NCBI RefSeq assembly: GCF_023055435.1
Contig: NW_025964223.1
Coordinates: 23,746,001 to 23,810,000 of the forward strand
DNA: 64,000 nucleotides
Source of the DNA: Haliotis rufescens
Lineage: Eukaryota
Reading direction: 5' to 3'
The notes beneath the pieces are model-generated. The model was given only the letters and a program-made list of their open reading frames with translations, searched no databases and was not told the origin of the DNA. Both the position numbers and the translations under genes were made by a program. Positions 6,096 through 63,832 of this stretch are shown piece after piece; the stretch's first letter is position 1, and every line of letters starts with the position of its first letter.

Positions 6096-8159
6096 ATGAA
6101 GGCTGCTGTTATTCTTGCTGTTCTTGCTGCAGTGCTGTGCGGTGAGTTAAATTCTTTTCCATCTGCTGCCTTTTGTGTGATGGCCATCATGTGCCTCACT
6201 CTATAATGTGGAGCCGTATCACTCTGGGTACATGTGATTTTATGCATCCCTCGTTAGGTATTATAAAACCACATGTTCCGAGTGATCCTGCTACAACGGA
6301 TTTTTTAATATGACATTGTAAAAGAATGAAAACAAATGCAAAATTGATAGAACACAGATGTTCGATTGAGCTGAGGTTAACGTGTGCTAGATCATGTGAC
6401 TTTACATTTACTCGATAAAGGCGTACGGTCTTCCGCTTCGAAGCGGGGTGTAAGGGATTTATTCTTACTCTTAGAAATCCACGTGCTGTCTTTTATGGTC
6501 GTGGCGGGGTATAAGGGATTTATTCTCCCTCTCGGCAATACACGTGCAGTCGGTGTCCTTTGTGGCGGGGTACAAGGGATTGATTCTCCCGCTGAGAAAT
6601 GTATTTCACTCCAAGGCGGGATACACAGTATTTTCTCAAGATCAGATCTCATCATTCTGAAATGGAGGTATGAAGGTGTAATCCGAAGTATGACATTGTT
6701 ACTTCCGCGAAACGTTCTTTTGAATTTCAGATTAATTCTGATTTCCATCCATTGGTTTTCAGCATCACACCCGTGCTTGTTGGTTTCAGGAGAAGCAAAC
6801 ACAAAATTTGCTTTCAAAGTGTCAGCAAAGGTATTCTGTGTAGAACCTATTCATTGCAACAGCCTAGTGCTTGCGTCCCTGGTTAGGTTTTATAAAATCA
6901 CATGTACCGAATCATCCTACCACAACAAAAAGTGTAATATAACATTGTAAAAGAACAAAAACAAATGCAAAATTGGTAGAACACAGCTGTTCGATTGAGC
7001 CGAGGTAAACGTATGCTATGTCATGTGACGTGCATTGACTCGGAAAAAGCGTACGGCTTTTCGCTTCAACGCGGGGTGTAAGGGATTTATTCCGCCTTTC
7101 CCTAATCCTCATGTGGTCTGTCTTGGTCGTGGAGCTATGATAATAGAATTTATACTTTACTTAGAAAGTGTAATGCGAAGTGTGACATTGTTACATCCGC
7201 GAAACGTTGTTTTGAATTTCAGATAAGTTCTGATTTCGAGTTTTTGGTTTTCAGCATCACACCCGAGCTTGTTGGTTTCAGGAGGACTCGACCGCGTCCT
7301 TATGAAGCAAACACAAAATGTGCATTTAAAGTGTCGGTCAAGGTATACTGTGTAGAACCTATTCATTGCAACAGCCTAGTGCTTCCCGAGGGACTTGTGA
7401 CGGATAGACATGTCATTCTTCCCCTAATCTCTCTTCACAGCCAGCACTGTCAATTGTGACTGCATTTGTTCCCGCATCCTTGACCCAGTCTGTGACACCG
7501 CCGGCAACTACTACGACAACGCGTGCCTGTTGAACTGCGTTGAGTAAGTATATCAATGACTATTTTTACAGAAATCCTTCACATAATTTCATTTGGCACT
7601 AAGAGTATCGAATCAAAGTAGAATTCATCCCGATTATAACAGGTTAAGAATATAGTGATTAATCACTCACAAAACCGTAATTAATCCCATTTTGCGGTTT
7701 GATTGTTAATGTGAAAATGTAAAGTGATAACATCAGCCGTCGCCCTTTTGTCCTTTTGTTGTATATGATCATGGTAAATACATAAATATTATCTCCATGA
7801 TCTGGACAGTCACTGACATTACGTCCATTTCCCCATTATGTCATGTGCATATAATTGTTCACTTTGGCGGCATAAACATGTATTCAATAGACTAATGCAG
7901 GGAAGTCAATAAGCAGGGCAACATGTTTGGGGATTTTTCTCGTGTCTGCAGATCCAATCGCTTAGATTGAGTTCAATGAAACGACACTTTTATCAATACA
8001 TAATGTTATGTATTCTAGCTACATTAAAGGAAATGTACCAGTAGCACCAATTCCTCATTCGTGACTCACGATGGATCTTCACTTTGCAGGGGTGCCGTCT
8101 TGGCCGCAGAAGGCGCCTACACCGTCAGTGCCAACTCTTGCGTTGCTGCCAGGAAGTAG
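6096..8159 (+). CDS. K1: secreted single-domain Kazal-type protease inhibitor precursor, 72 aa, 3 exons
   Basis: Exons 6096-6141, 7441-7543, 8090-8159; GT-AG introns of phase 1 and 2. Translation MKAAVILAVLAAVLCASTVNCDCICSRILDPVCDTAGNYYDNACLLNCVEGAVLAAEGAYTVSANSCVAARK*. Hydrophobic signal peptide, Kazal Cys pattern, TATAAA at 6022, AATAAA at 8227. Confidence 0.9.
6441..6640 (+). repeat. Degenerate ~60-bp minisatellite in K1 intron 1 (also K3, 18731-18925)
   Basis: Core gcggggt(g/a)(t/c)aagggatt(t/g)attct at ~6442, 6504 and 6565, with a weaker copy at 6616. Confidence 0.75.
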
Positions 8160-8232
8160 ATGACCATCACCTTCACCTTTGACAAAATGGAGCTTCCCCG
8201 ACCACAGAAGCACATATTGCTTGAGCAATAAA
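8160..8232 (+). terminator. Conserved 3'UTR with AATAAA polyadenylation signal (K1 shown)
   Basis: AATAAA at 8227-8232, ~68 nt after the stop. The same UTR and hexamer occur in the paralogues, with variants in K2 and K8. Confidence 0.75.
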
Positions 8233-8802
8233 ATTTAGAAGCAATCCATCTGGTCATGTCTATATTTCTGATTTTATTAATACTGATGGCTGTCCACAGG
8301 ATTAGATACAAAACATGTAATTTTGAACTGAGCCATCATTCGATACGACAGAATGTGCTTTTGGCTGATAACTTGCACAGAAAAAGGTCAACACATGTGT
8401 CTCTGTGGGGATAGGCTGAATATATCACACATCTGTTTGCGATTATGCAAGCTTATTTGAAAATGTAAGTGGACTATATTTCCCTTGCACAGTCGAAATG
8501 AGGGGTGGGGGGGGGAGGTGGGGGGGGGGGGGGGGGGTGCAGTTATAAGGCGAAAGCCTTCCCTCCACACAGGAGCATACCGAAGAACATCACGGTAGCC
8601 CGTTCAACTACTGATCAAAGTGTATTGCAGTCTCAACTCCTTAGTATACATCCCTGATGCCGCCAATAATGTGATACAATTAATGGTGCAAGGTATATAA
8701 GCCCTGATGGCTAAATACACTGTAAAGTCTTGGAGGAAAATATGTATACATTTAAAGGGTTGATTATTCACCAATCAACCCAGACTGGATACGACAAGGG
8801 AG

Positions 8803-9435: not shown

Positions 9436-9436
<1 letters not shown>

Positions 9437-9491
<55 letters not shown>
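9437..9491. repeat. (CA)n microsatellite
   Basis: Direct reading. Confidence 0.95.
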
Positions 9492-9494
<3 letters not shown>

Positions 9495-14477: not shown

Positions 14478-15384
14478 GGCAACAACACAAGAGTTGACAC
14501 TGAAGGTGTAGGCCCCTCCTGCGCCCTGCAATGTGAGGCAAGATGGAGAAATTGTTACTGGTTTTATTTCCTTAAATTTAGTTAGATAACATAGGATGCA
14601 TTAATATAAAAGGCATATTTATCGAGGTTTTTTAAAATCAATCTATGCGATTAGATCTCTACACGTGACAAAAATAAATCCAAAACATGCTTACATGAAC
14701 TTCCTACCCTTGTCCTTGTCTAACAAATCGCAAAGAGAACCATCGTATTAATAATCATTGGGATTAATTGCGGTTTCACTATAGTCGACAAATCACAATA
14801 TTCTAGCCTGTCATATCTGGGATGAACTCTACTTTGCTTTGATACTCCCCTTGCTAGGGTCGAGTTATGAGACGGTTCGCTGTAAGAATTTCAGGGATAT
14901 ACCTACTCAACGCAGTTCAACTGGCACGCGTTGTCGCGGTGTCACCGACGGGGTCAAGGATGCGGGAACAAAGGCAGTCACAGTTGACAGTGCTGGCTAT
15001 GAAGAAATATGAGGTGTAGAATGATATGTCTAATCTGATACTGGTTCCTCGGGAAGCACTTTGTCTTTGAAAGGATTTTTTTCCACACAATATACCTTGA
15101 CCGACACTTTAAATCGACGACTTTTGATTTCTAAATGTAAAACATTATCGATGTGGCTTCACTTCGACACAGTCAATCTGAGACCAACGGGTACGGGAGG
15201 GATGGGGAGAAACTGGTGACAAACGAATACTGGATTCAAAACTATGTGAGGTTTCTGGCTCGCATAACTCAGCGGTGACCCGTGGGAAAATGCACAACGG
15301 ATTGTGCATGTGCATTTGAATATACCTGATAAAACAGAGCTTAAACTCACCGCACAGAACCACAGCAAGAACAGCAGCCTTAAT
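14478..15384 (-). pseudogene. K2: Kazal-type inhibitor pseudogene
   Basis: Exon 1 (15384-15351) has ATG>ATT and a 9-nt deletion. Exon 2 (14996-14907) is 90 nt instead of 103 (13-nt frameshifting deletion) and has CysIII>Gly. Exon 3 (14525-~14478) has deletions including the stop codon. PolyA signal is changed to AATATA. Confidence 0.9.

Positions 15385-17688: not shown

Positions 17689-17691
<3 letters not shown>

Positions 17692-17761
<70 letters not shown>
17692..17761. repeat. (CA)n microsatellite
   Basis: Direct reading. Confidence 0.95.
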
Positions 17762-17764
<3 letters not shown>

Positions 17765-18425: not shown

Positions 18426-20151
18426 ATGAAGGCTGCTGTTATTCTTGCTGTTCTTGCTGCGGTGCTGTGCGGTGAGTTTAATCCTTTTCTATCTGATGCC
18501 TTTGTGTGATGGCCATCATGTGCTACACTCTTTAGGTTGTTGTAGTACCGCTCTGGGTACATGTGATTTTATGCATCCCTCGTTAGCTTTTATAAAATCA
18601 TATGTACCGAGGGATCCTGCTACAACGATTATTTTAATATGACATTGTAAAAGAATGAAAACAGGTTAATGTGTGCTATGTCATGAGACTTTCATTGACT
18701 CGGAAAAAGCGTACAGTGGTTTGCTTCAAAGCGGGGTGTAAGGGATTTATTCTATATCTCAGAAATCCACGTGTTGTCTGTCTTGGTCGTGGCGGGGTAT
18801 AAGGGAGTTATTCTCCTTCTCAGCAATACATGTGCAGTCGGTGTTCTTCGTGGCGGGGTACAATGCATTGATTCTCCCGCTGAGAAGTGTATTTCACTCC
18901 AAGGTGGGATACATAGTAATTTATCAAGATCAGATAACCTACCTATGTTATCCCACTCATGTATGCCCTTGTTGTTACTGTTAATCCTCTACTGTTAATC
19001 CTCCACTTGCTATATATATTCTGCACTATGTCCCTCATTCAGTCTTGCTTGACAACGGTATAAGGATCTTTACCGAAACGTCGCTTTTTACAGTATTAAA
19101 GAAGTTGTTATCCATAAAATTGTGTCTATCTTGTCAAGATCAGATCAGACCATTTTGACATGGATGTATGGTAATAGAATTTATACTTTACTTAGAAAGT
19201 GGAATCCGAAGCATGACATTGTTCCTTCCGCGAAACGTTCTTTTGAATTTCAGATTAGATCTGATTTCGACCCTTTAGTTTTTAGCATCACACCTGAGCT
19301 TGTTGGTTTCAGGAGGACTCGACCGCGTCCTTATGAAGCAAAAACAAAATGTGCATTTAAAGTGTCGGTCAAGATATACTGTGTAGAACCTATTCATTGC
19401 AACAGTGCTTGCTGAGGGACCTGTATCAGGATAGACATATCATTGTAACCCCTAATCTCTCTTCACAGCCAGCACTGTCAACTGTGACTGCATTTGTTCC
19501 CGCATCCTTGACCCTGTCTGTGACACCGCCGGCAACTACTACGACAACGCGTGCCTGTTGAACTGCGTTGAGTAAGTATATCAATGACTATTTTATAGAA
19601 ATCCTTCACATAACTCCACCCAGCACGAGTATTAAATCAATATATAACTCACCCCGACTATAACAGGTTAAGAATATGGGGATTGGTCACCCGAAAAACC
19701 GTAAAGTGATAACATCAGCCGTAGCCCTTTTGTCTTTTTTTGTATATGATCATGGTAAATACATACATTATATCTCCATGATCTCGACAGTCACTAGAAT
19801 GACGTCCATTTTCCCCTTCAAGAATTATGTCATTTGCATATATCTGTTTCATTTGGCGGCATAAACATGTATTCAATAGACAAAGGCAGGAAAGTCAATA
19901 AGCAGGGCAACATGTTTGGGGATTTTTGTCGTGTCTGTAGATCCAATTGCTTGTATTGAGTTTAATGAAACGACACCTTTATCAGCTATACATAATCTTA
20001 TGTAATGTAACTACAATAAAGGAAATGTACCAGTAGCACGAATTCCTCATTCGTGACTCACGACTGATCTTCACTTTGCAGGGATGCGGTCCAGGCCGCA
20101 GAAGGCGTCTACACCGTCAGTGCCAACTCTTGCGTTGCTGCCAGGAAGTAG
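18426..20151 (+). CDS. K3: secreted Kazal-type inhibitor precursor, 72 aa
   Basis: Exons 18426-18471, 19469-19571, 20082-20151. Translation MKAAVILAVLAAVLCASTVNCDCICSRILDPVCDTAGNYYDNACLLNCVEDAVQAAEGVYTVSANSCVAARK*. TATAAA 18352, AATAAA 20213. Confidence 0.9.
18936..19133 (+). mobile_element. Short Penelope-like retroelement end in K3 intron 1
   Basis: Flanked by the direct repeat tcaagatcagat and absent from the K1 intron. Contains cttgacaa-[stem-loop]-ccgaaacgtcg followed by attaaa. Confidence 0.55.
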
Positions 20152-23100
20152 ATGACCTTCACCTTTGACCAAATGGAGCTTCCCCGACCACAGAAGCACA
20201 TATTGCTTCAGCAATAAAATGTAGAAGCAAACCATCTGGTCATGTCTATTTTTCTGATTTTATTAATACTGATGGCTGTCCACATGATTAGATACAAGAC
20301 ATGTAATTTTGAACTGAGCCATCATTCGATACGACAGAATGTGCTTTTGGCTGATAACCTGCACAGAAAAAGGTCAACACATCTGTCTCTGTGGGGATAG
20401 GCTGAATACATCACACATCTGTTTGCGATTATGTAAGCAAATTTGAAAGTGTAAGTGGACTATATTTCCCTTGCACAGTCGAGACATTTGAACGGTTGAG
20501 TATTCACCAATCAACCCATACAGGATACAAGGGAAGCGCAGTACAGACTTTAGAGTATAATGGCCCTGTTCTGCCACCATTGCTCCACCCGACCCTCATT
20601 CAGTCTCCTCATTAAAACACGCATGATCTCCTCAGTACATACATTTCTCGGAATACATGTTGGCGCTCGTAAATACATCATGACTTTGTATTAGCATATT
20701 ATATACATTTCCCTCAAATAGGGAGTCAACCATCTCTGTGGTGATAGTGGATAGAGCGTCTGCCCAGAGTGAGAGAGGGTGAGGCAGAGGAGGGAGGGAG
20801 GGAGAGAGAGAAGGGGGTGATTCGACCAAATATCAAAAGACGTACAAATATACTACTTGTTGTTACCCTGCCTCTGATGTCGGCATTAAGGGGAGATGAA
20901 ACAAGGAGTGGCCGTGTACATATTGTCAGTGGTATTTCGGTGTGCTAGCACTATTGGACATCAACAGCATGCTGATCTGATTGGTGGTTATTTGTCTTGA
21001 TAAAAAGGCGTGATTGTTTGCATATAAATGTTACAGTATTTAGACCAGCTAAGATCAGATGCACACATGTCTCTATTGCTCCTCACTGCGAGATATAGCT
21101 CGTTCTGTAGGCTTTCGTCATCGTAGAAAAGGTTTTATGTGACCGCCATTAGTAACACAAAGTGCAAGCATGGTGACAAACATGGTGACAAGCTAAACTG
21201 TCAGCTAGACATGTTCACGGGTGGTGAATAGTTAGGCAGTGTGTATTGACGTCAACCTGCCTCGCAGCGGACCGTTGGCGTGCCGGGGTCATAATCCAAC
21301 ACTCTGATTATGATTCTTTGTTTTAGCAGCACCATCCCTGGTTAACGACATAGACCTTCATCAGTTTGTGCTCTTCCTCACAGGAGCTGACACGCCGTGA
21401 GATTACACTTGTCGCTTGCGTCCACCCTCATATGGCATAAAAAGAAACAAAAGATTTTAATGAATGAACATTTGGGGTTCAGTAAAAAAGGGGGCCTTAA
21501 TGAATGTATTCAGATGGTGTTAAGGCGACGGCGCACGAGTTGCCTGAGATGGTAAAGGTTCCAGCTAATTTCTCAACTCCACTGTAGAAACAGTGACGTG
21601 AATAAACAAAAACACTATATTTTCAGTGTTTAAACATTCCTGTGTCATTAAACCGTCAAGTATCTGTGCTACATGCAAACGTTGGAATTATACCGTTTTT
21701 GGCTATCGAATATGATGATTTATGTAATACTGGGGTCAAAACTATTCAAGAAGTTTGACAAGTAATGAGTTCTTACGTGCTGTCAAGCATACAGGTTCTA
21801 CACAAGACTTTGAGGTCAGTGCCACAAACCGGGTCAAAGATGAAAGAGCATGCACATATCTCTCCAGATACGGAGTAGGTGGCGGTAAAAAGACGATACA
21901 ATTCAATGGGATATTCAGTGTTGTGTACCGCACTACCGTCGAAACCAGGTAGATTTGAGTTTATTGTCATCAATATTTCAGCTTCAACACCGAGGTCTGC
22001 TTTGAGATACATTCTCTCTTCATGATAGTCACAAGGTCCACAAAAGTATGTCATCCAAAAAAGGAAAATGTAGATCATAATAATAATTTTAAAAATATGA
22101 TAAAAACTAAAAGAAACGGAATACAATTAAAAAAATAAATGTAAACAAAACTATATGCACAAATGTTAAATCAAACTTAGGATAAACTGTAGGTAGTGAA
22201 ACCATAACAACGGTAAGAGTATCTATAAACGGTTTTTCATCATAATGGCATATGAAACAAACAAGCTCTGGCTAATAGTGATTTGATATTTAATCATCTA
22301 AAATCAGAGTTGGAAAGCTGAAGGACGGAAGCAAGTTTGAACTTTTGAGCATAACATTCATCCCTTAGTGCTTGATATTGTTAATATGTATATGGACCAT
22401 AATACTATTGGTGATGCTAGTCGGGTAAGTCAGATTGACTGCATTTTCACTGAACTCATTCCTGATATCTGCGGTGGAGATGCCGTTCATTTTCAAAGTA
22501 ACATATGATGACCTGAGTTATTTATTTACATGAACTATATTTGATGGATGATTTGTTGGATGAAAAGACCCCATCCCCATTATTAACGAATTATGTTTAA
22601 CGATTTTAACTTTCGAACTTCTCCTTCAATAGGTATCACTATATGGATACCAGTAAACCGTATCTACACATCTAAATTTATATGAACTACTACTCAAACA
22701 TGTAATTCATATACTCTTTCATTCAGAATGGAATTAGTTACTGAGACACATCACAATTTCACGACCACTTTTCCCTGAAATATTTATAATAAAATATGAA
22801 CTCGCTTTCACATGTAAAGATATTTTTAATGTGAAATCCACTCAAACAAGACATATTACTTAGAAAATAAGTTAAGCGCCACTCAATATTTTTGACAATA
22901 CAAAAACTGGGGTCAAAATGTAAACAATATGGGGAGAGTTTTATATAAAACGACAACAAAATTGTGTAAAGAGGTTTATTGACATGAAACAATAGTTTAA
23001 ATTTTGTGAATATTTGCAGTTATGTGTCAGCAGCAGTGATCATAGAACAGCAAGTGTTTTATAGCCACTAAAGCGCTGAAACACTATCAACGCCAGTAAC

Positions 23101-23196: not shown

Positions 23197-23200
<4 letters not shown>

Positions 23201-46566: not shown

Positions 46567-46741
46567 CAGTTAACTACGGTTATAACGAACTCAAAGGGAC
46601 TACTAATTTTAGAACGTTATAACCGTAATTCGTTATAAGCATATATACAGCATAACTACAGCATATAGTCGGGACTAAAAAGTTAGTTCGTTATATCCGT
46701 TAGTTCGTTATAAGCGTGTTCGTTATAACCGTAGTTTACTG
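46567..46741. mobile_element. pogo/Tigger-like MITE copy
   Basis: As 37249-37423. Confidence 0.85.
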
Positions 46742-47351: not shown

Positions 47352-48476
47352 ATGAAGGCTGTCGCTATTCTTGCTGTTCTTGCTGTTGTGCTGTGCGGTG
47401 AGTTTAACTTTTGTTTTAGAAGTTCTATTCCAATGTATATCCAGAATCTGTTGTGCATTTTCCAAGGGTTTACATTTGGCCCAATCGTCAGTCGATGTGT
47501 CCATAGAGCCAGAATACTCTCAAATTTGTTTTCAATCCCAGATTCGTTCTGATATTAATCCTTGGTTCGTCGGCATCCCACCCGTGCTTGTTGGTTTCAG
47601 AAGGAGTCGGCCTAGTCCTAATAAAGTTTCATAGCTATCGTTTTACATTTAGTAATCCCAGTGAGGGAGTGAGTTGAGTTTAACGCCACCTTTTGTGGTA
47701 TTCCAATTGTCAGCTGACGGCGTGTCAGTTGAATGGAGGAGGAAAGCCCGAAGTGATCCACAACTCAAACGTTTACCACTTCGGTGAAACTCACAAACAT
47801 AATTATGGTACCGACAAACCTGGAAACATAATTGGTGCGAACTGGGATTAGAACCCACTATCATAGGTTTCTTGCGTACCTAAGGGACGCAACTCTGCAA
47901 AGCGGATGGACCACGACACATAGCTATACTTTTAGTAATTAAAAGCCGTCCATTTAAAGTGTGTATTGTGTGGAAAAGATTCATTGTAACTTCATTGTGC
48001 TTGCTGAGGGACCTGTATTAAGATAGAAATATCATTCTACCTTTCATCCCTCTTCACAGCCAGCACTGTCAACTGTGACTGCCTTTGTCCCCGCATCCTT
48101 GACCCCGTCTGTGACACCGCCGGCAACTACTACGACAACTCGTGCCAGTTGAACTGCGTTGAGTAAGTATATGCATAAAATATGCTTACAGAGATTCCTC
48201 TCATACCTCCATTCTAGTACTAGGAGTATCAAATCAAAGTAGAGTTCATCCCAGATTAGAATATGGTGGTTAATCATCGCCGGTAACGAAACTGCAGCTA
48301 ACCTATATGACGATTAAATACCACGGTACTTTTTGTGATTTGAAAGTCAAATGTAAATTGATCCAAAAGGTGATAATGGTCATCACGATGAACCTTTACA
48401 TTGTAGGGGTGCCGTCCAGGCCGCAGAAGGCGCCTACACCTTCAGTGCCAATTCTTGTGTTGCTGCCAGGAAGTAG
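47352..48476 (+). CDS. K9: secreted Kazal-type inhibitor precursor, 72 aa
   Basis: Exons 47352-47397, 48060-48162, 48407-48476; protein identical to K7. Confidence 0.9.
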
Positions 48477-48823
48477 ATGACGTTCACCTTCACCTTTAAC
48501 CAAATGGAGCGTCCCCGACTACAGAAGCACATACTGGTTGTGCAATAAAACATAGAAGCAATCCATCTGTCTGTTTTTCATGTATATTTACATCTTCCCG
48601 AGCAAGAGAGTTAACTGACTATAAAAGTCCAGTTTCCAACCTTGCCGAACTAGGCTGGTATAATGGAGTTACATTTTGCTAGACTAACGAGTCTATGCAT
48701 AGTCCAATCAAAATCGCGCAACGAAATGATGACATTTGTTTTTAGGCAAAAGTCTCTCCGCCACAGAGGGGCATGTCAAAGCCGATTATGATATCCCGTT
48801 CTGATCACAACTGTTCACAATGT

Positions 48824-49828
48824 AATAATTCTTTAATTTGAAGTTTACACGATATACGGCTTTTCCATTGGACGAGTGGTCGGTCGCATGACCGCGAAAT
48901 TGACGTTCATAAGTGTATGAACGACACAATTTGACGTTCATACGTTTTTCACGAAATCGTGTTCTTGAAATGACGTAAACTCTGACGGACTACTTCCACA
49001 TTCCTTGGGAAACCCCTGGGAATTCCCTAGCACGAAAACATACATAAGCGTTCTTTCTGATCGTTTAGAACCTTTATAATTGGTCTCAGCGTTTCAGTCT
49101 ACATTGAGAAATGTCAGAGAGCATGACTGCATGATTGTTCACGAATAGCCTCGCTGCGGCCTATCCTAATGAACAAACGAAGAAATGCACATCTAAACTA
49201 TCGTGGTATCGACTCAATCCGTGCCTAGGCTGACATTGACCGTGTCCAGCAATCTACGCATTTACCTTGGTGTCTGTTTGACGCATCTTTAATCACCTTT
49301 CAATAATCGGTCAGTTGATCAATGATGACTAACACATGTAACCGCCACAGGTTCATTAACAACTTCGGAAATCCTCCCGTCACGTTTATCGTGTCGGCCA
49401 TTTTCACGTCTTGTACTTGATGTAAAGGTATTACGATGCGCTTTCATTGTGACTGACTTGCAGAGGTAGTTCTTTACAGACCTTTCTCATCTATTGGTGA
49501 TATAATTTGAACACATGTGTTGCGTAAGATGTTTCTGAAGAGCAAGTTGTGCATCCATACGCTCATGTTACCTCTCCTTTTGGGAAACTATTTTATTCCG
49601 CGATACAGCTGGTCGTTGTTTGGCTGTCAGTGACAACATGAAGTCACACGTACTAAATAAAATTGTGTTTAGATCTTGGCCTACATCCTTTGAGGTAGGA
49701 AATTTTGATATAAAATTATAAGAATTGACTTTCACTTTGTCGCAAGCTCCGACGTTCATACAGTTTGGCCCTCACTCTACGAAGGTTCATACTCCAATGA
49801 ACTCACACAAAGTGAAGGTCAATTCTTA
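48824..49828. mobile_element. ~1-kb non-autonomous insertion with a terminal hairpin and no clear TSD
   Basis: Absent from the empty site caatgtattgaag (~30887). Ends in the inverted repeat taagaattgactttcactttgt...acaaagtgaaggtcaattctta. Copies at ~39441-40426 (5'-deleted) and ~58206-59209. Confidence 0.7.
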
Positions 49829-50324
49829 ATTGAAGTTGTCAATTCATTAGTATATATTCCTGATACCGTCATTGATGTGATACAATTAATATAGTGGCAA
49901 GGAACATCATCCCTAATGGTTAATCACACTGTTAGGTCTTGGGGTAAAGCTTCCGGTAAGTTAATTAAAGACAAATTATGTAGACATTAAAAGGGTTGCT
50001 TATTCACCAATCAACCCAGACAGGATACGACAAAGGGAGGACAGACTAGAGAGTTGACTGACCACTGGCCATTCTCTGCCATCATTGTTTCATTCCAATC
50101 TTCATTCAGTCCCCTCCTACAACACGCATGAGCATAAATTGTTCGGAATGTTGGCGCACGTAAATGCAATGTTGCAGTAACGTATATATTTCCATCAAAT
50201 AGGGAGTCAACCGGCTTTGTTGTGTAGAGGATAGGGCATCTGTCCAGAGAGAGAGTGAAAGGGTCCGTGGTTCAATCCCCTGCCCCGTCATATCAAAAGA
50301 CGTGAACATATGGTCACGTGATTA

Positions 50325-52320
50325 GGTTCACTGTGGGTGTTGTGATTCTGATCTGGGAAAAGGTTTCAGACATATTTCATGGACTACCAACCTGATAAGT
50401 ATGCCAGCATTCGGATTTACTAACATAAACATTGCTATCACAGTTTGGAGAGGTCGAGTCGGTTGTTTTGTCCCTCGGGGCGGACAACCACCATGCATAT
50501 ACCTCGGTACACAGCTATCATGTCGGATGCCTTTGGCGTTTTGCCTGCTTTTTTGTAGTTAACATTCTTACTTGCCTCAGGGTCCATCTATAACACCCAC
50601 AGTTCAGGATACAAGGGTTCAAACTATGTTATCTTTTCAGAATGTTTCAGATCAATGTTTGACTCTTGACAATGAGACCACTATTAGTTACCTCGCTAAA
50701 ACACCAGTTTCGTGACGAGAAAGTGAAGTTGAGAAAACACGTACATGTTTTTGACTTGGGAATACAAACTGATAATCTGGAGGCTCAGTCCCGGCGTTGC
50801 AACTTTTCATGGGCTGTCAGATTGAAACAGAGAACAGGGTGTGGGATTTTATGTGCTCGTCACTGAACATCAGCTCCTCCAGCAAAGATGGTATTGAGCG
50901 TACCCTAAGACTGCATATCACGCATTGGGAACAGACATGTGATTGTCAAATTTACCTTCTTTTTTGATAATTCTGAAATATTGACATATTGAACAAAAAA
51001 TTGAAAAAAAATGAACAATTTCGAGTGTCTGAGGATTTTACAGAGCGAATGCGACAGACAGATCAAAATTGATCACCTTCATAATGATAGCGAGGGGTGA
51101 CAAAAAAGTCTCGCGTATGAGCTATGGCAAGTTTGTTATCGATGATACGTGGATTGATGATTACATTGTCACAGACAATAATTCTGGACATACCGTTATG
51201 TATATGAAATCAAACCTGAATTATAATACAGATTTCAAACACTGTATAATAGATTTGACAACCAGATCTCTGCACAACAGACTGTGGAACTAGCACATAA
51301 ATATGGTGGTGTCAATGTAGATACCAACCTTGATACTACAGGTTGATACTAACCAGATCTCAGATGGAATACCAGATTCAACCACTTTTCATCATCAAGA
51401 AGAAAGTACACAAAACTGTTGTTAGGTAAGACCTAGTGAAAACACTGCCTCAATACCAGACATAAATATAACTGATATTATGAGTGGCAACAGTGCCTCA
51501 GTTAGAAAAAATGTTATTACCACCATGTGCTCATGGAATATTAACGGCTTCTTCTCAAAAATTGAGTATTCGGATTTTGCTCTCTTTGGCAAATTATGAG
51601 ACATTTTTTGGTGAATAGAGATAACGCGTATGAATGTGCATGATATTTTGCAAAATTTATTTAACGACTGTGAAATATTTAGTATCTCCCACTTCCTTAA
51701 GAGAGTCTGATAATGCTCTGTCTTTCAGGGTGAAGAATGAGTTGTCCCCCTTACATATTTCCTTCTGTTTGTTTCTATCAACCCTGAGGGTTCACCAGTA
51801 TATTCAGAGAAGAGAATTGAATTGACACGCTCGAAAGGCAATTTATCAACATTCTTCATGCTAATGGCGATTCATTCGAATTTGTATTGTGTGGAGATTT
51901 CATTGCCAGGCAGATTGGAAATCAGTTAGTTAAATCATTAAAGTTCATGTTGATTATTTACCTATTGACAAGGACAATAAAACCGATAACTTCTCTTGTT
52001 CTCAACAATCTTTAGATAAAGTCATAAACAACAATTGCCTAAATCTATTAGATATGTGTATGATACTTAGCATCCTTATAGTTAATATAAAATTAATCAG
52101 ACATCACAGGCGATCTGACTTGTGTATGGCATTCTGGATGCAGCGTTGTTGAAAATTTTATCATTTCTACTAATATTTTTACAAACATACCAGACATATA
52201 CAATAGACTGATGTCTCAAATTGGGATCAGAAAAGACACATCTTCCTGTATTCTTCAGAAAAATATATGTTGGTAATATAGAGAATAACCTTCGCACATC
52301 CTGTTATTACCTATCATGTG
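50325..52320 (+). mobile_element. Paralogous APE-LINE remnant
   Basis: Near-identical to 40915-42900. Confidence 0.7.
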
Positions 52321-52714
52321 TACCTCATGAGTTCATGTTAAAAGTCGGTTGAATTATTTCTTGAAGGGGGTATGGACGTTTTCTCTGATGTGATGTGATG
52401 TGACGTTACGTTACGTGATGACCACCTCTCACAAGACAATCTATGATCTGAGTATGCCGTGTTTGTTGTTTGAGGGGACTTAATGTGAGATGTATTCAGC
52501 CTACTCTACAGAGACAAATGTATTGACCTCATTCTGTAATACATTCTAGTCGTGTCGTGTCAAATTGGAATACAGTTCAAGATAAATTTGATAATTATTT
52601 AACCTTGTCGACATTCAACGGTATCACTGAATATAAATAAAAACATAGACATGACCAGATGGATTACTTAAATATTTTATTGCACAATCAATCAAAGGTG
52701 AAGGTGAAAGTCAT

Positions 52715-54326
52715 CTACTTCCTGGCAGCAACGCAAGAGTTGGCACTGAAGGTGTATGCGCCTTCTGCGGCCTGGACGGCACCCCTACAATGTAAAGGTT
52801 CATGGTGAGGAAGAATGAAAAATTGTAACTGGTACATTCCCTTCAATTTTGTTAGATTACACAACATGTGTTTTTCCTAATTACGGCAGAAAAGGATATT
52901 TATCGTTTCATTAAAATCAATCAATGCGATTAAATCTTGAGACACGGCAAAAATAACACCAAAACATAGTTACACGGTAATTAAATTTCCTGCCCTTGTC
53001 TACTGGATTAATGTTTTTGCTGTCAAATGAAGCACAGTCTAGACGACATATTTATTGAAGCAAGGGGGGGGGGGGGGGGGGGGGGGTGTTTAGAGAGGAC
53101 TGTCAAGATAATGGGGGTTGAATGTTAAATTGTATGTCTTTACCATGACCATTCAAAACAAAAGGACATAAGTGCTACGACTTATGTTATCACTTTACAT
53201 TTTTACGTTGGCTTAGCAAATCGCAAAGAGAACCATCGTATTAATCATCATTGGGATTAATTGCGGTTTCGTTACAGTCGACTATATTCTAGCCTGTTAT
53301 ATTTGGGATGGACTCTAGTTTGCTTTGACACTCTTAGCGCTAGAGTTATGAGACGTATCTCTGTAAAAGTATTTCATTGATATACTTACTCAACACAGTT
53401 CAACTGACACGAGTTTTCGTAGTAGTTGCCGGCGGTGTCACAGACGGGGTCAAGGATGCGGGGACAAAGGCAGTCACAGTTGACAGTGCTGGCTATGAAG
53501 AGACATGAAGGATAGAATGATATGTCTATCCTGATACAGGTCTCTCAGCAAGTATAAGCTTGTTGCAAGGAATATTTTCCACACAGTCTACCTTGTCACA
53601 CACTTTAAATGAACATTTTGTCGAGTTGCGAACCTTGGGCATGCAAGAAACCTATGATCGTGGGTTTGAATCCCGGTTCGCCCCGATTATGTTTCTAGGT
53701 TAGTCAGCACTATACTCATGTTCGTGCGTTTCACCAAAGTGGTAAACGTTTGAGTCGTGCAACACTTTGGGCTTTCCTCCCACGTTAAGCTGACACGCCA
53801 TCATATGATTCGAATACCGCAAAAGGCGGCATTAAACCCAACTCACTCACTCATTCACTATGACTACTAAATGTAAAACGATAGCTATGTAGCTTTATGG
53901 CTGGCTGTGAAGAAATATGAGGGGTAGAATGATATTGCTCAGGAAGCACTTGGTTTTTGCAAGGAATATTTTCCAAACAATATACCTTGATCGACACTTT
54001 AATTGACGACTTTTAGTTAGTAAATGTAAAACGATATAAATTTACTTCATGCAGACGTGGTTCATCTGAAACTGACTAATATGGGTGTGGTGGTGACACT
54101 AATAAGGATCGAAATCAGAAAAAATCTGGGCTTAAAAATTATAAGAGGGTTCTGACTCAACTAACTCTGGCGACTTCCTCCATCTCAGGCGACAGAGTCA
54201 ATTATGACCCGTGGGAAAATGCACAAGGGATTGTGCATGATACATTTGAATATAACTGATGAAACAGAGCTCAAACTCACCACACAGCACCGCAGCAAAA
54301 ACAGCAAGAATAACAGCAGCCTTCAT
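52715..54326 (-). CDS. K10: secreted Kazal-type inhibitor precursor, 72 aa
   Basis: Exons 54326-54281, 53492-53390, 52784-52715. As K8 except YYDN>YYEN; 34-nt deletion in the 3'UTR. Confidence 0.9.
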
Positions 54327-55944
54327 CGTGATGCCAAAGGATGGAGCTTCTCTTCCGAACAGGATCAAAGTATCGAATGGATTCAAATGTCTGTATTTAT
54401 ACACTACATACGGCCCATAAAATACTAATTCAAGTAATATATAGCTCCTCGGTCGATTTTTAAGTCGAGGATATATTGTATCCTCAAGCACCGGGTTGCT
54501 ATAAGTAGTTTGTGTCGCGTACTACCAACTTCATATCAACATAAAAACAATCTCATGTGAACGTAAAACTATATTTATTATTCAAACAACATGTTTTGCC
54601 ATAGCATCCACTTTGGGTCAATTTGGAGCTTTGTTTTCAGACTTGCAGGTGTTACTGAGTTTTCGATGCCCGGTTTCAAATATTAACATTTCAGGGCATC
54701 GAATATTCAATAACATCCGATAATCGAAAACACGAAATGTTTCTCGACATTGCAAAATACAGAAGTTGTAATCTTCTGCAGCACTCTCTCTTGATGTGAA
54801 CTCTCACAGTTGTGAGGCAGACATGTCGTCACTCTGCAATGGGCTGACGTCATGCTGGAATACTTTGACGCCTGGTACAACTGAACTCATATTGTTGGCA
54901 GAATGTGGAAAAAACAAGTAAACGAAAATTGGTCTGAAACATATTGATCCAACTGGATAATTATTTAACGTGTCACTGCCATGAAGGCATAATCACAACA
55001 ACAAAAATGGCTTCATCCACCTCTTGATTCACATGAGTAAAAAACAATCTCAACGGTCAACCCATTACACAATGGTAGCATGACAGAGGATAGAACTTAC
55101 AGCTTATAACTTATAACACAAAGAGGTGAGCAGCAATTATTCCAAGCAGGATGTTGGCATCATCGGCTTATTTCTCCACAACGAATTGCGCTTCGCGTAC
55201 CCTGATGTTATGGAGTCTCTGATTTTGCAACCTCTGTCAGTTGTAAAAGGTAAAGTGATGCGTAATGACGTTTAACGCCGCGTTGAATAGTATTGCACTT
55301 ACAAAGCGACATGCACTAGTTCGGACCAGTGCCGATTTTATAGTGCTAGCCAACTGAGATGCCATGCTTCAGTTTGACATGAACACAATGACAGAGTATA
55401 CTGCGAGCCGGACCTGTCCTTGTGTTTAAGTCCCTAAATGCTGAGTGCCCGACAGAATAACAACAAATAATCTTTTCACGTCATTTGGTGTGATGCAGCC
55501 GGGGATCGAACCCCGACCCTCCGCTCTCTGGGCAGACACTCAGCCACTGGATCTCGGGGGTGGTCCAGTTGTAATAAATATGCAACAATGGTGGTTCATT
55601 TGGAACATAAATGCACTGTGTTTCGATATAGAGCTAGCATTCCTGTCAATGCATGTCATTTGTATAATGATGTGGGGAAAAAACTTGATGTGATCCTAAT
55701 AAAATCCAGCCATCTGATTGCAGAACTCATATAAATCGGTTAGTCCTCCTACCTATGCCTATATGACGTCATCTGCTTGTCACGTCATATTTGACATGGT
55801 TCCCATTTTGAGTTAACATACAGATCTCACTGGCGTCATAAGGTAGAATTGATATTGTCAAACAAACATAGTTCAAAACACGTCGTGAAAATGAATATAA
55901 ACTGGGGAGCAAAATAGAATACACCGAGTTTGTTTTTTCGTGTA

Positions 55945-56119
55945 CAGTTAACTACGGTTATAACGAACTCAAAGGGACTACTAATTTTAGAACGTTATAA
56001 CCGTAATTCGTTATAAGCATATATACAGCATAACTACAGCATATAGTCGGGACTAAAAAGTTAGTTCGTTATATCCGTTAGTTCGTTATAAGCGTGTTCG
56101 TTATAACCGTAGTTTACTG
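55945..56119. mobile_element. pogo/Tigger-like MITE copy
   Basis: As 37249-37423. Confidence 0.85.
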
Positions 56120-56733
56120 TAATTGAAAATTAAAAGAACTATTGTTAAATTTGCCTACTTGACCATCAACCATTCCTTCAAATGTTATAAAATTGTGTTC
56201 AGAAAAAATTATTTTCCTAAGTTACCAATTACCAGCATCGTATGATTTTGGGGGGAAAATAATTAAAAGTTATCCCCAAAAAAATATTTAAAATAATAAA
56301 ACCTTGTAGAAGTATTATTTGAGTGCTGACTAAGCGCCGGTATAGTTCATTTTGGGGAAATAATATGTCTAACTTGTGATATTTTTATTTGAAAATCATT
56401 CATATGGTAAAATCCACTGAGAGGTATTGTTTCATTTGATCCTCAGATTAACTGAACATTTCAGAACAGCCTTCAACCTTCGATCTCGCTTTGTGTAAAC
56501 CCATTCAGCTAGTCCGGTATACCTGGGTAATGGCACATCAACTACTCACCACAACCTCGTGCATAACACATAAAGTTTTAAGAGAATTTAAAATCATACC
56601 TTACAAATCGGCTAAGGAGACATTTATCTCTTTAATTCTTTATGTGTGCTTGTGTGGTGTATAAATGCGGAGATTTCAATCCATTCGACACTTTGATCCT
56701 GTTCGGAAGAGAAGCTCCACCTATAGCATCAAT

Positions 56734-57858
56734 ATGAAGGCTGTCGCTATTCTTGCTGTTCTTGCTGTTGTGCTGTGCGGTGAGTTTAACTTTTGTTTTA
56801 GAAGTTCTATTCCAATGTATATCCAGAATCTGTTGTGCATTTTCCAAGGGTTTACATTTGGCCCAATCGTCAGTCGATGTGTCCATAGAGCCAGAATACT
56901 CTCAAATTTGTTTTCAATCCCAGATTCGTTCTGATATTAATCCTTGGTTCGTCGGCATCCCACCCGTGCTTGTTGGTTTCAGAAGGAGTCGGCCTAGTCC
57001 TAATAAAGTTTCATAGCTATCGTTTTACATTTAGTAATCCCAGTGAGGGAGTGAGTTGAGTTTAACGCCACCTTTTGTGGTATTCCAATTGTCAGCTGAC
57101 GGCGTGTCAGTTGAATGGAGGAGGAAAGCCCGAAGTGATCCACAACTCAAACGTTTACCACTTCGGTGAAACTCACAAACATGAATATGGTACCGACAAA
57201 CCTGGAAACATAATTGGTGCGAACTGGGATTAGAACCCACTATCATAGGTTTCTTGCGTACCTAAGGGACGCAACTCTGCAAAGCGGATGGACCACGACA
57301 CATAGCTATACTTTTAGTAATTAAAAGCCGTCCATTTAAAGTGTGTATTGTGTGGAAAAGATTCATTGTAACTTCATTGTGCTTGCTGAGGGACCTGTAT
57401 TAAGATAGAAATATCATTCTACCTTTCATCCCTCTTCACAGCCAGCACTGTCAACTGTGACTGCCTTTGTCCCCGCATCCTTGACCCCGTCTGTGACACC
57501 GCCGGCAACTACTACGACAACTCGTGCCAGTTGAACTGCGTTGAGTAAGTATATGCATAAAATATGCTTACAGAGATTCCTCTCATACCTCCATTCTAGT
57601 ACTAGGAGTATCAAATCAAAGTAGAGTTCATCCCAGATTAGAATATGGTGGTTAATCATCGCCGGTAACGAAACTGCAGCTAACCTATATGACGATTAAA
57701 TACCACGGTACTTTTTGTGATTTGAAAGTCAAATGTAAATTGATCCAAAAGGTGAAAATGGTCATCACGATGAACCTTTACATTGTAGGGGTGCCGTCCA
57801 GGCCGCAGAAGGCGCCTACACCTTCAGTGCCAATTCTTGTGTTGCTGCCAGGAAGTAG
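56734..57858 (+). CDS. K11: secreted Kazal-type inhibitor precursor, 72 aa
   Basis: Exons 56734-56779, 57442-57544, 57789-57858; protein identical to K7/K9. Confidence 0.9.
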
Positions 57859-59707
57859 ATGACGTTCACCTTCACCTTTAACCAAATGGAGCGTCCCCGA
57901 CTACAGAAGCACATACTGGTTGTGCAATAAAACATAGAAGCAATCCATCTGTCTGTTTTTCATGTATATTTACATCTTCCCGAGCAAGAGAGTTAACTGA
58001 CTATAAAAGTCCAGTTTCCAACCTTGCCGAACTAGGCTGGTATAATGGAGTTACATTTTGCTAGACTAACGAGTCTATGCATAGTCCAATCAAAATCGCG
58101 CAACGAAATGATGACATTTGTTTTTAGGCAAAAGTCTCCCCGCCACAGAGGGGCATGTCAAAGCCCATTATGATATCCCGTTCTAAACACAACTGTTCAC
58201 AATGTAATAATTCTTTAATTTGAAGTTTACACGATATACGGCTTTTCCATTGGACGAGTGGTCGGTCGCATGACCGCGAAATTGACGTTCATAAGTGTAT
58301 GAACGACACAATTTGACGTTCATACGTTTTTCACGAAATCGTGTTCTTGAAATGACGTAAACTCTGACGGACTACTTCCACATTCCTTGGGAAACCCCTG
58401 GGAATTCCCTAGCACGAAAACATACATAAGCGTTCTTTCTGATCGTTTAGAACCTTTATACTTGGTCTCAGCGTTTCAGTCTACATTGAGAAATGTCAGA
58501 GAGCGTGACTGCATGATTGTTCACGAATAGCCTCGCTCCGGCCTATCCAAATGAACAAACGAAGAAATGCACATCTAAACTATCGTGGTATCGACTCAAT
58601 CCGTGCCTAGGCTGACATTGACCGTCTCCAGCAATCTACGCATTTACCTTGGTGTCTGTTTGACGCATCTTTAATCACCTTTCAATAATCGGTCAGTTGA
58701 TCAATGATGACTAACACATGTAACCGCTACAGGTTCATTAACAACTTCGGAAATCCTCCCGTCACGTTTATCGTGTCGGCCATTTTGACGTCTTGTACTT
58801 AATGTAAAGGTATTACGACGCGCTTTCATTGTGACTGACTTGCAGAGGTAGTTCTTTACAGACCTTTCTCATCTATTGGTGATATTATTTGAACACATGT
58901 GTTGCGTAAGATGTTTCTGAAGAGCAAGTTGTGCATCCATACGCTCATGTTCTTTTCATTTTGGGGAACTATTTTATTCCGCGATATAGCTGGTTGTTGT
59001 TTGGCTGTCAGTGTAAACATGAAGTCACACGTACTAAATAAAATTGTGTTTAGATCTTGGCCTACATCCTTTGAGGTAGGAAATTGTGATATAAAATTAT
59101 AAGAATTGACTTTCACTTTGTCGCAAGCTCCGACGTTCATACAGTTTGGCCCTCACTCTACGAAGGTTCATACTCCAATGAACTCACACAAAGTGAGGGT
59201 CAATTCTTAATTGAAGTTGTCAATTCATTAGTATATATCCCTGATACCGTCATTGATGTGATACAATTAATATAGTGGCAAGGAACATCATCCCTAATGG
59301 TTAATCACACTGTTAGGTCTTGGGGTAAAGCTTCCGGTAAGTTAAAGACAAATTATGTAGACATTAAAAGGGTTGCTTATTCACCAATCAACCCAGACAG
59401 GATACGACAAAGGGAGGACAGACTAGAGAGTTGACTGACCACTGGCCATTCTCTGCCATCATTGTTTCATTCCAATCTTCATTCAGTCCCCTCCTACAAC
59501 ACGCATGCTGAACTCAGAGCATAAATTGGTCGGAATGTTGGCGCACGTAAATGCAATGTTGTAGTAACGTATATATTTCCATCAAATAGGGAGTCAACCG
59601 GCTTTGTTGTGTAGAGGATAGGGCATCTGTCCGGAGAGAGAGTGAAAGGGTCCGTGGTTCCATTCCCTGCCCCGTCATATCAAAAGACGTGAACATATGG
59701 TCACGTG

Positions 59708-61700: not shown

Positions 61701-62235
61701 ATGTGTACCTCATGAGTTCATGTTAAAAGTCGGTTGAATTATTTCTTGAAGGGGGTATGGACGTTTTCTCTGATGTGATGTGATGTGACGTTACGTTACG
61801 TGATGACCACCTCTCACAAGACAATCTATGTTCTGAGTATGCCGTGTTTGTTGTTTGAGGGGACTTAATGTGGAACGGGTGGAAACATCATTCGTCAGTC
61901 ATCATTACGTCTGCAAAAGGGAGATATAGGCCATTCACACTTTCAATTCTGCTTACAGTATCGCAAACAGATGTGAGATGTATTCAGCCTACTCTACAGA
62001 CACAAATGTATTGACCTCATTCTGTAATACATTCTGTCGTGTCGTGTCGAATTGGAATACAGTTCAAGATAAATTTGATAATTATTTAACCTTGTCGACA
62101 TTCAACGGTATCACTGAATATAAATAAAAACATAGACATGACCAGATGGATTACTTAAATATTTTATTGCACAATCAATATGTGCTTCTGTAGTCGGGGA
62201 CGCTCCATTTGGTCAAAGGTGAAGGTGAAAGTCAT

Positions 62236-63832
62236 CTACTTCCTGGCAGCAACGCAAGAGTTGGCACTGAAGGTGTATGCGCCTTCTGCGGCCTGGACGG
62301 CACCCCTACAATGTTAAGGTTCATCGTGAGGCAAGAATGAAAAATGTAACTGGTACATTCCCTTCAATTTTGTTAGATTACACAACTTTTTTTTTTCATA
62401 ATGACAGCACAAAAGGATATTTATCGTTCCATTAATGCGATTAAATCTTGAGTCAAGGTAAAAATAACACCAAAACATGTTTACACGGTAATTGAATTTC
62501 CTGCCCTTGTCTACCGGATTCATGTTTTTGCTGTCAAATGAAGCAGATATATGTAGACGACATATTTATTGAAGCAAGGGGGAGAGGTTTCGTGGGGGTG
62601 GGAATGGGTGGGGTGTTTAGAGTGACTGTCAGGATAATTCGGGTTGAATGTTAAATTGTATGTCTTTACCATGACCATTCAAAACAAAAGGACATAAGGA
62701 CATCACTTTAGATATTTACGTTGGCTCAGCAAATCGCAAAGAGAACCATCGTATTAATCATCATTGAGATTAATTGCGGTTTCGTTACAGTCGACTGGAT
62801 TGTAGCCTGTTATATTTGGGATAGACTCTAGTTTGCTTTGACACTCTTAGCGCTTGAGTTATGAGACGTATCTCTGTAAAAGTATTTCATTGATATACTT
62901 ACTCAACACAGTTCAACTGACACGAGTTGTCGTAGTAGTTGCCGGCGGTGTCACAGACGGGGTCAAGGATGCGGGGACAAAGGCAGTCACAGTTGACAGT
63001 GCTGGCTATAAAGAGACATGAAGGATAGAATGATATGTCTATCCTGATACAGGTCTCTCAGCAAGTATAAGCTTGTTGCAAGGAATATTTTCCACACAGT
63101 CTGCCTTGTCACACACTTTAAATGAATATTTTGTCGAATTGCGAACCTTGGGCATGCAAGAAACCTATGATCGTGGGTTTGAATCCCGGTTCGCCCCGAT
63201 TATGTTTCTAGGTTAGTCAGCACCATACTCATGTTCGTGAGTTTCACCAAAGTGGTAAACGTTTGAGTCGTGCATCACTTCGGGCTGACGTTAAGCTGAC
63301 ACGCCATCATATGATTGGAATACCGCAAAAGGCGGCATTAAACCCAACTCACTCACTCATTCACTATGATTACTAAATGTAAAACGATAGCTATGTAGCT
63401 TTATGGCTGGCTGTGAAGAAATATGAGGGGTAGAATGATATTGCTCAGGAAGCACTTGGTTTTTGCAAGGAATATTTTCCAAACAATATACCTTGATCGA
63501 CACTTTAATTGACGACTTTTAGTTAGTAAATGTTTAACGATATAAATTTACTTCATGCAGACGTGGTTCATCTGAAACTGACTAATATGGGCGTGGTGGT
63601 GACACTAATAAGGATCGAAATCAGAACAAATCTGGGCTTAAAAATTATAAGAGGGTTCTGACTCAACTAACTCTGGCGACTTCCTCCATCTCAGGCGACA
63701 GAGTCAATTATGACCCGTGGGAAAATGCACAACGGATTGTGCATGATACATTTGAATATAACTGATGAAACAGAGCTCAAACTCACCACACAGCACCGCA
63801 GCAAAAACAGCAAGAATAACAGCAGCCTTCAT
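62236..63832 (-). CDS. K12: secreted Kazal-type inhibitor precursor, 72 aa
   Basis: Exons 63832-63787, 63005-62903, 62305-62236; protein identical to K8. Confidence 0.9.

What the first reader, a model, noticed from the sequence alone, without database searches (positions are those of the whole stretch)
7441..63005. Reactive-site loop is invariant across paralogues (P1 Arg, P1' Ile), suggesting dosage rather than diversification
Seen: all 12 copies, including the pseudogene, keep R-I-L-D-P-V after CysII. Only P2/P4 vary (ICS in K1/K3, LCS in K2, LCP in K4-K12), while the introns carry many indels and TE insertions. Known: in Kazal domains P1 is the second residue after CysII, Arg predicts trypsin-like targets, and reactive sites of inhibitor families are often hypervariable. 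Inference: selection is for quantity of one specificity against a single trypsin-like protease.
Basis: partly seen in the sequence, partly recalled or inferred. Interest (0 to 1): 0.7.

Follow-up and report, generated by a model that had tools for sequence, protein, structure and literature searches.

The report
Amplified abalone Kazal inhibitor gene array
An abalone carries 17 near-identical genes in a row for a small secreted protein that likely blocks trypsin-like proteases in bulk, but its binding loop is no better conserved than the rest of the protein, and one copy just outside the window has a different key residue.

Summary
The inference is only partly supported. The array continues beyond the window (17 copies, 16 intact). 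The intact copy K14 has P1 Leu and P2 Thr, and its form occurs in a spliced-transcript run. Older intact paralogues in the same cluster have P1 Met or Ile. The coding sequence is under purifying selection (omega 0.26-0.32), but the loop is not more conserved than the rest of the domain (P 0.14-0.15), and enzyme-contact positions vary at least as often as others (6 of 9 against 13 of 36). Pro-Val is family-wide scaffold, the pseudogene would keep the loop by chance (62%), and the copies are not independent: two units are 99% identical and the two intron trees conflict, which points to gene conversion. Bulk production of a mainly Arg-P1 inhibitor is plausible (7 copies encode one peptide; very deep spliced contigs). 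A single target protease is not shown. Verdict: a new, apparently unannotated member of a known kind, amplified by birth-and-death evolution.

The parts
6096..8159 (+). K1, intact: exons 6096-6141, 7441-7543, 8090-8159; RILDPV codons 7473-7490; P4-P2 ICS
14478..15384 (-). K2, pseudogene (3' end approximate): start codon lost, deletions in all three exons (frameshift in exon 2), CysIII replaced by Gly; RILDPV codons 14947-14964
18426..20151 (+). K3, intact: exons 18426-18471, 19469-19571, 20082-20151; loop 19501-19518; ICS
21776..21880 (-). Relic Kazal exon of the older P1-Met type, here with P1 Phe; frame lost after CysIII; no signal exon or third exon found nearby
24555..26243 (-). K4, intact: exons 26198-26243, 24996-25098, 24555-24624; loop 25049-25066
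25783..25822 (-). Partial duplicate of exon 2 inside K4 intron 1, with His at the P1 codon (non-coding fragment)
28275..29690 (+). K5, intact: exons 28275-28320, 29046-29148, 29621-29690; loop 29078-29095
33950..35651 (-). K6, intact: exons 35606-35651, 34624-34726, 33950-34019; loop 34677-34694; intron 1 and intron 2 group with different lineages (mosaic)
38051..39185 (+). K7, intact: exons 38051-38096, 38769-38871, 39116-39185; loop 38801-38818; both GT..AG joints seen in contigs of public runs
43335..44947 (-). K8, intact: exons 44902-44947, 44012-44114, 43335-43404; loop 44065-44082
47352..48476 (+). K9, intact: exons 47352-47397, 48060-48162, 48407-48476; loop 48092-48109
52715..54326 (-). 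K10, intact: exons 54281-54326, 53390-53492, 52715-52784; loop 53443-53460; Glu at contact position P14'
56734..57858 (+). K11, intact: exons 56734-56779, 57442-57544, 57789-57858; loop 57474-57491
62236..63832 (-). K12, intact: exons 63787-63832, 62903-63005, 62236-62305; loop 62956-62973
39441..58228 (.). Two 9.4-kb units (K8+K9, K10+K11) 99.1-99.3% identical: a very recent duplication, or possibly two haplotypes assembled in tandem

Best explanation
This is an alternately inverted array of 17 three-exon abalone genes (16 intact) for a 51-residue Kazal-type domain, likely a secreted, bulk-produced inhibitor of trypsin-like proteases, in which the whole domain rather than the reactive loop is held by purifying selection and likely gene conversion, and one copy beyond the window has P1 Leu. 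Shown: gene structure, splicing, copy number in this assembly, omega well below 1, no loop-specific excess of conservation, conflicting intron trees, and P1 Leu/Met/Ile in intact neighbours. Inferred: signal cleavage after VNC, three Kazal disulfides, canonical substrate-like binding with P1 Arg in the S1 pocket of trypsin-like enzymes, a shift of K14 towards elastase/chymotrypsin/subtilisin-type enzymes, and selection for dose as the reason the Arg lineage was amplified. The cluster evolves by birth and death: specificity differs between lineages (Arg, Leu, Met, Ile), and one lineage was recently multiplied.
For: Gene models: 16 intact 72-aa precursors, GT..AG throughout. Both K7 joints seen in contigs of public runs, intron 1 in 4 of 4 and intron 2 in 3 of 4 listed, from 4 organism labels. 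Pfam Kazal_1 above cut-off for 2 of 2 exons tested. Best PDB hits: infestin 1 first, LDTI among the top five for K7; anemone elastase inhibitor first for K14. Omega 0.32 and 0.26; 2dlnL 22.0 and 23.5 against omega = 1. Loop 0 of 14 changes in window (P 0.135), 1 of 24 in all 16 (P 0.15); contact positions 4 of 9 against 8 of 36 and 6 of 9 against 13 of 36 variable (contact list from PMC1236909). P4' Pro 92% and P5' Val 87% among 850 distinct Kazal domains from the 150 best hits. Intron 1 and intron 2 reject each other's tree (AU < 1e-80) and exons reject both (AU 0.013). K14 has 5 private replacements, 3 at contact positions; a contig with its three diagnostic changes is in run X1 (depth 15,803 of 351,780) and a P1-Leu contig in the DNA-like run X15 (57 of 962). 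The P1-Met paralogue 7 kb upstream of K1 is an annotated protein, P0151, and folds as a Kazal domain. Genome is an abalone: lysin and VERL repeats.
Against: No inhibition assay exists. The family has unusual scaffold residues (Asp at P7', Ala at P9', Tyr at P12'; 2.4%, 0.4%, 0.4% of 850 domains), so canonical inhibition is assumed; the full domain of this family was not folded (only the paralogue P0151, with no Foldseek match at E <= 0.001 though all listed matches but two are Kazal-type inhibitors). The tests have low power: the loop has fewer changes than expected (0 against 1.9; 1 against 3.2), so mild extra constraint is not excluded. P1'-P5' (ILDPV) is invariant in 17 of 17. Exon distance did not follow physical distance once intron distance was held (partial Mantel P 0.29), and exon sites were not clearly more homoplastic than intron sites (15 of 23 against 46 of 81), so conversion inside exons is not proven. 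Contig depth is a poor measure of expression and cannot rank genes. Selection for dose cannot be told from neutral amplification with these data.
Confidence: 0.68

Rival explanations
1. One reading: selection acts specifically on the reactive loop to keep one specificity against one trypsin-like protease, and copy number serves dose only.
For: Arg P1 in 16 of 17 copies, ILDPV in 17 of 17; loop below the neutral rate (P 0.007 window, 0.02 all 16); 7 of 16 copies give one peptide; no P1 change listed in runs X7 and X10 of two other organism labels; one residue between CysI and CysII is linked to narrower specificity (PMC6950245).
Against: Loop not more conserved than the scaffold; P6, P4, P2, P1, P14' and P18' all vary; K14 has Leu and its form is in a spliced-transcript run; P1+P1' alone do not differ from the silent rate (P 0.19 and 0.43); nothing identifies a single target.
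Confidence: 0.15
2. Neutral expansion: the inverted-pair unit is prone to unequal crossing-over and conversion, copies are kept alike by homogenisation and generic fold constraint, and copy number is not selected.
For: 99% identical 9.4-kb units; mosaic copies K6 and K13; silent sites and 3' UTR also more conserved than introns; pseudogenes and relic exons in the array.
Against: 16 of 17 copies are intact although introns differ by about 20%; omega 0.26-0.32 shows protein-level constraint; TATA-like and polyA-like signals are found in 16 of 16 intact copies.
Confidence: 0.12
3. The peptide is mainly not a protease inhibitor but a reproductive or signalling peptide on a Kazal scaffold, for example the counterpart of the female spawn-associated Kazal-type peptide of Haliotis asinina, so the whole surface is constrained by a non-protease partner.
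For: Whole-domain conservation including rare scaffold residues; a spawn-associated abalone Kazal peptide is cited in two papers; predicted mature masses of 5.0-5.4 kDa are near the roughly 5.1 kDa that I recall for it (recalled, not checked); a gastropod Kazal with a second, non-protease activity is described (PMC13101452).
Against: The paper was not held, so orthology is untested; tissue of the runs is unknown; the loop is a textbook canonical one, and the one-base Arg/Leu switch at P1 recurs in a second Kazal array, which fits protease-driven selection.
Confidence: 0.1

Closest known systems
Non-classical short-loop Kazal inhibitors (MEROPS I1, name recalled): infestin 1, leech-derived tryptase inhibitor, rhodniin, dipetalin
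   Same: C-x-C-x7-C-x10-C-x3-C spacing, basic P1 followed by a hydrophobic P1', PVC and Y-x-N-x-C motifs; best PDB hits, E 4e-6 to 5e-5.
   Different: CDTAGNYY in place of CGSDGxTY; 18 residues between CysV and CysVI; encoded as 17 single-domain genes rather than one multidomain chain.
Sea-anemone elastase inhibitor (PDB 1y1b/1y1c)
   Same: Best hit for K14 (E 6.5e-6); same I-C-T before a hydrophobic P1 and D-P-V-C after it.
   Different: P1 Met and P1' Gln there, Leu and Ile in K14; the wild type has a longer CysI-CysII loop.
P0151 (XP_046329179.1, 'dipetalogastin-like', Haliotis rufescens) and P0152 (H. cracherodii)
   Same: Same cluster, same three-exon plan and intron phases, related signal peptide and third exon.
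   Different: P1 Met, one intact copy plus two broken ones, about 54% identical in exon 2; its two orthologues differ at only 2 residues, both contact positions (P4, P3').
Conkazals (MKAVA superfamily) and schistosomins
   Same: Gastropod single-domain Kazal, phase-1 intron after the signal and phase-2 intron between the Kazal CysV and CysVI, strong negative selection, conserved P1 (PMC13101452); five copies here also begin MKAVA.
   Different: 8 cysteines, about 73 residues and P1 Glu there; 6 cysteines, 51 residues and P1 Arg/Leu here. The same intron plan is also in human SPINK1 (recalled), so it is not diagnostic.
Razor-clam family I84 inhibitor clusters
   Same: Molluscan three-exon protease-inhibitor genes expanded in tandem, with no positive selection detected among recent paralogues (PMC9198434).
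   Different: Unrelated 12-cysteine family.

Membership tests
Kazal-type domain (Pfam PF00050) | Profile match above the curated cut-off | tested here: met
   26.9 and 28.5 bits against cut-off 21 for K1 and K7 exon 2
Kazal-type domain (Pfam PF00050) | Six cysteines with CysII-x7-CysIII-x10-CysIV, Asn at P15', Tyr at P13' | tested here: met
   16 of 16 intact copies
Kazal-type domain (Pfam PF00050) | Helix plus three-stranded sheet with I-V, II-IV, III-VI disulfides | tested here: inconclusive
   Paralogue P0151 folds with pLDDT 84-91 over the domain and matches Kazal structures (probability 1.0, E 0.02); the family's own exon-2 fragment gave a poor model; disulfides not examined
Kazal-type domain (Pfam PF00050) | C-G-S/T-D-G-x-T-Y hairpin consensus | tested here: not met
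   Asp, Ala and Tyr at P7', P9', P12'; a consensus feature, not a strict criterion
Canonical trypsin-like serine protease inhibitor | Arg or Lys at P1 on the loop after CysII | tested here: met
   15 of 16 intact copies; K14 has Leu
Canonical trypsin-like serine protease inhibitor | Measured tight-binding, P1-dependent inhibition | not testable with these tools
   Needs an assay
Ovomucoid-type hypervariable contact residues | Excess of replacements at the 10 Laskowski contact positions | tested here: inconclusive
   6 of 9 against 13 of 36 variable, Fisher P 0.14; trend towards more, not less, variation
Conkazal / schistosomin | Eight cysteines and P1 Glu | tested here: not met
   Six cysteines, P1 Arg/Leu against PMC13101452
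Haliotis asinina spawn-associated Kazal peptide | Sequence orthology and female-gonad expression | not testable with these tools
   Paper not held; tissue of runs not given

The most novel reading that the evidence does not exclude
Abalone builds fixed-ratio, two-specificity inhibitor cocktails by amplifying and homogenising Kazal units while flipping a single base at P1 between Arg and Leu: 15 Arg to 1 Leu intact genes in this array, and 14 Arg to 28 Leu tandem exons in a second array on contig C246. This super-abundant, unannotated peptide family would be the gene source of the female spawn-associated Kazal peptide and would guard eggs or spawning fluid against sperm or microbial proteases.
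Probability: 0.15. Interest if true: 0.6.

Novelty: new member of a known kind. Interest (0 to 1): 0.3.

Why it matters
It corrects a tempting story: the loop's invariance is what recent amplification, whole-domain purifying selection and likely conversion give, and it breaks one gene beyond the window's edge. What remains useful is a 17-copy, spliced, apparently very abundant abalone peptide family that was not found in the protein collection, with natural Arg and Leu P1 variants ready for assay. If it is the spawn-associated Kazal peptide, it would tie copy number to reproduction in a farmed animal.

Tried and rejected
Protein collection searches with the exon-2 frame found no member of this family at 26-84 aa or longer; a six-sequence profile found only the Met paralogue, 1 of 77 candidates. 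This suggests missing annotation but does not prove it. Single-sequence AlphaFold of the 34-aa exon-2 fragment was poor (pLDDT 61) and was discarded. The Atlas search with P0151 gave Kazal clusters at scores under 0.9, a lead only. The apparent stop after exon 2 (VE*) is the splice donor, not a stop, and the extra N-terminal Cys most likely ends the signal peptide, so a permuted five-plus-one cysteine fold was rejected. Conkazal membership was rejected on cysteine number and P1. A distance-dependent conversion signal in exons was not found. No run is on record as RNA (no RNA holder listed); RNA origin rests on GT..AG joints. The 57-of-962 depth ratio in X15 (about 1 in 17) fits 17 copies, but the tool warns that depth is no copy number, so it is not counted as proof. 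No complex was predicted, since Kazal-trypsin is a textbook pair. Literature searches showed no paper on this array; subscription journals are largely missing. Earlier scan notes returned nothing. K2 was left out of all dN/dS and tree counts.
Full report
Observation. The in-frame stop after VE is the splice donor. Each gene has three exons (46, 103, 70 nt; phase 1 then phase 2) and gives a 72-residue precursor with a predicted 21-residue signal and a 51-residue, six-cysteine mature peptide. Both joints of K7 appear as GT..AG skips in contigs of public runs, intron 1 in 4 of 4 runs and intron 2 in 3 of 4, with single-contig depths in the thousands to tens of thousands; the tool does not allow depth to be read as expression level. 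Exon 2 passes the Pfam Kazal_1 cut-off and is closest to infestin 1, rhodniin and LDTI in the PDB. P1 is the second residue after CysII (PMC13101452, parts 1-5 of 10 read). The genome has lysin and a VERL repeat array, and a neighbouring gene matches a protein labelled Haliotis rufescens letter for letter: this is an abalone.

The array does not end at the window. In 100 kb of flank on each side there are five more copies downstream, making 17, of which 16 are intact. K14 (G000:C445:23821246-23821347, minus) reads CICTLILDPVC: P1 Leu by a single base change, P2 Thr, P6 Asn. It has 5 private replacements and 2 private silent changes, the most replacements of any copy, 3 of them at contact positions; this is suggestive, not significant. 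Its best PDB hit is the anemone elastase inhibitor. A contig with its three diagnostic changes is present in run X1 (another organism label, a run that shows spliced joints), and a P1-Leu contig in the DNA-like run X15; none was listed for X7 or X10. Older intact paralogues with the same exon plan flank the array, with P1 Met (P0151) and P1 Ile; a further exon has P1 Arg, two more Met-type exons look broken, and a broken Phe exon and a partial His exon lie inside the window. So specificity is diversified across the cluster, and one lineage has been multiplied.

Is the loop special? The coding sequence is constrained: omega is 0.32 (whole) and 0.26 (mature), and omega = 1 is rejected with 2dlnL 22.0 and 23.5 (16 intact copies, K2 left out). 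Exon diversity is 0.04-0.09 against 0.22-0.24 in introns. The loop is below the neutral rate (0 changes against 4.9 expected in the 11 intact window copies, P 0.007). But against the rest of the domain it is unremarkable: 0 of 14 replacements in the window (1.9 expected, P 0.135), 1 of 24 over all 16 (3.2 expected, P 0.15), and 39 of 51 mature positions are invariant in the window anyway. Using the 12 enzyme-contact positions of Kazal domains (PMC1236909, passages read), the nine non-cysteine variable ones change in 4 of 9 (window) and 6 of 9 (all) cases against 8 of 36 and 13 of 36 for other positions (Fisher P 0.22 and 0.14). Two of the six letters, Pro and Val, are scaffold consensus (92% and 87% of 850 distinct domains from the 150 best hits). 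P1 and P1' alone cannot be told from the silent rate (P 0.19 and 0.43). The power is low, so mild extra constraint on the primed side (ILDPV in 17 of 17) is not excluded.

The copies are not independent. The K8-K9 and K10-K11 units are 99.1-99.3% identical and could in part be haplotypes. Seven of 16 copies give the same mature peptide; there are 10 distinct peptides. Intron 1 and intron 2 reject each other's tree (AU below 1e-80) and the exons reject both (AU 0.013); K6 and K13 are mosaics. Silent sites are also held: 6 of 25 four-fold sites vary against 157 of 222 gap-free intron columns (P 7e-6), or 0.14 against 0.20 by pairwise distance, with GC3 0.72 in 40% GC DNA. This fits conversion limited by intron heterology or selection on an abundant mRNA; imperfect intron alignment may inflate the gap. 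Two tests for conversion inside exons were negative. The pseudogene has 7 private substitutions in 192 aligned exon bases, so it would keep the loop by chance 62% of the time, and it cannot witness selection in any case.

Mechanism. Most likely (0.68) a secreted, acidic (pI about 4.2) canonical inhibitor: P1 Arg would enter the S1 pocket of trypsin-like enzymes, the C-x-C start would narrow specificity (PMC6950245, passages), and K14 would cover hydrophobic-pocket enzymes. The paralogue P0151 folds as a Kazal domain; the family's own full domain could not be folded. Selection for dose is plausible given 16 of 17 intact copies at about 20% intron divergence, but is inferred; one target protease is not shown. 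Rivals are loop-specific selection for one enzyme (0.15), neutral expansion (0.12) and a non-protease reproductive role (0.10). [quoted passage not shown]

Comparison and novelty. It works like short-loop invertebrate Kazals and is a member of the Kazal family by profile and cysteine spacing, with an odd hairpin (CDTAGNYY) kept at its three rare positions in 16 of 16 copies. It is not a conkazal. Tandem molluscan inhibitor clusters without positive selection among recent copies are known (PMC9198434, abstract and one section), and multidomain Kazals dominated by one P1 occur among the hits. The family was not found in the protein collection, and eight literature searches showed no paper on it. 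The most striking side result is a second Kazal array on C246 whose repeats toggle P1 between Arg (14) and Leu (28) by one base, the same switch as K14. Verdict: observation confirmed in the window, interpretation partly supported, new member of a known kind, interest 0.3.

Noticed in passing
G000:C246:5225700-5249500 (L022-L024): Second Kazal array of about 43 tandem exons at roughly 0.5-kb spacing, nearly identical from P2 to CysV except P1, which is Arg in 14 and Leu in 28 through one base.
   Followed up: partly
L011 (window-relative -1034 to about -2750, minus strand): Intact P1-Met paralogue P0151; it differs from its H. cracherodii orthologue P0152 at 2 of 76 residues, both enzyme-contact positions (P4, P3'), the ovomucoid-like pattern (chance about 0.04).
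   Followed up: partly
L004 (window-relative 96761 to about 93660, minus; and 102570-102671, plus): Two further Kazal paralogues: an intact 67-aa gene with P1 Ile and no Pro at P4', and an exon with P1 Arg and P2' Met whose other exons were not located.
   Followed up: partly
all copies, exon 2: Rare scaffold residues Asp (P7'), Ala (P9') and Tyr (P12') are invariant in 16 of 16 intact copies though found in 2.4%, 0.4% and 0.4% of homologous domains; more unusual than the loop itself.
   Followed up: partly
exons and UTRs of K1-K17: Silent sites and the first 100 nt of the 3' UTR are more conserved than introns, with a sharp rise in divergence beyond the splice sites; conversion (possibly RNA-templated) or mRNA-level selection.
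   Followed up: partly
window 39441-58228: Two 9.4-kb units 99.1-99.3% identical; may be a very recent duplication, a copy-number variant or tandem haplotypes.
   Followed up: no
L001-L002 (window-relative 70700-75250): K14 intron 2 is 4.5 kb and holds broken transposase-like frames (Tc1/mariner-like by recalled motifs).
   Followed up: no
window-relative 79337-79465 and 88965-89010; window 25783-25822: Partial exon-2 duplicates inside introns of K15, K17 and K4.
   Followed up: partly
window-relative -7043 to -6963 and -12345 to -12284: Two decayed exon-2-like relics upstream of the array, and two broken Met-type exons at about -9900 and -17800.
   Followed up: no
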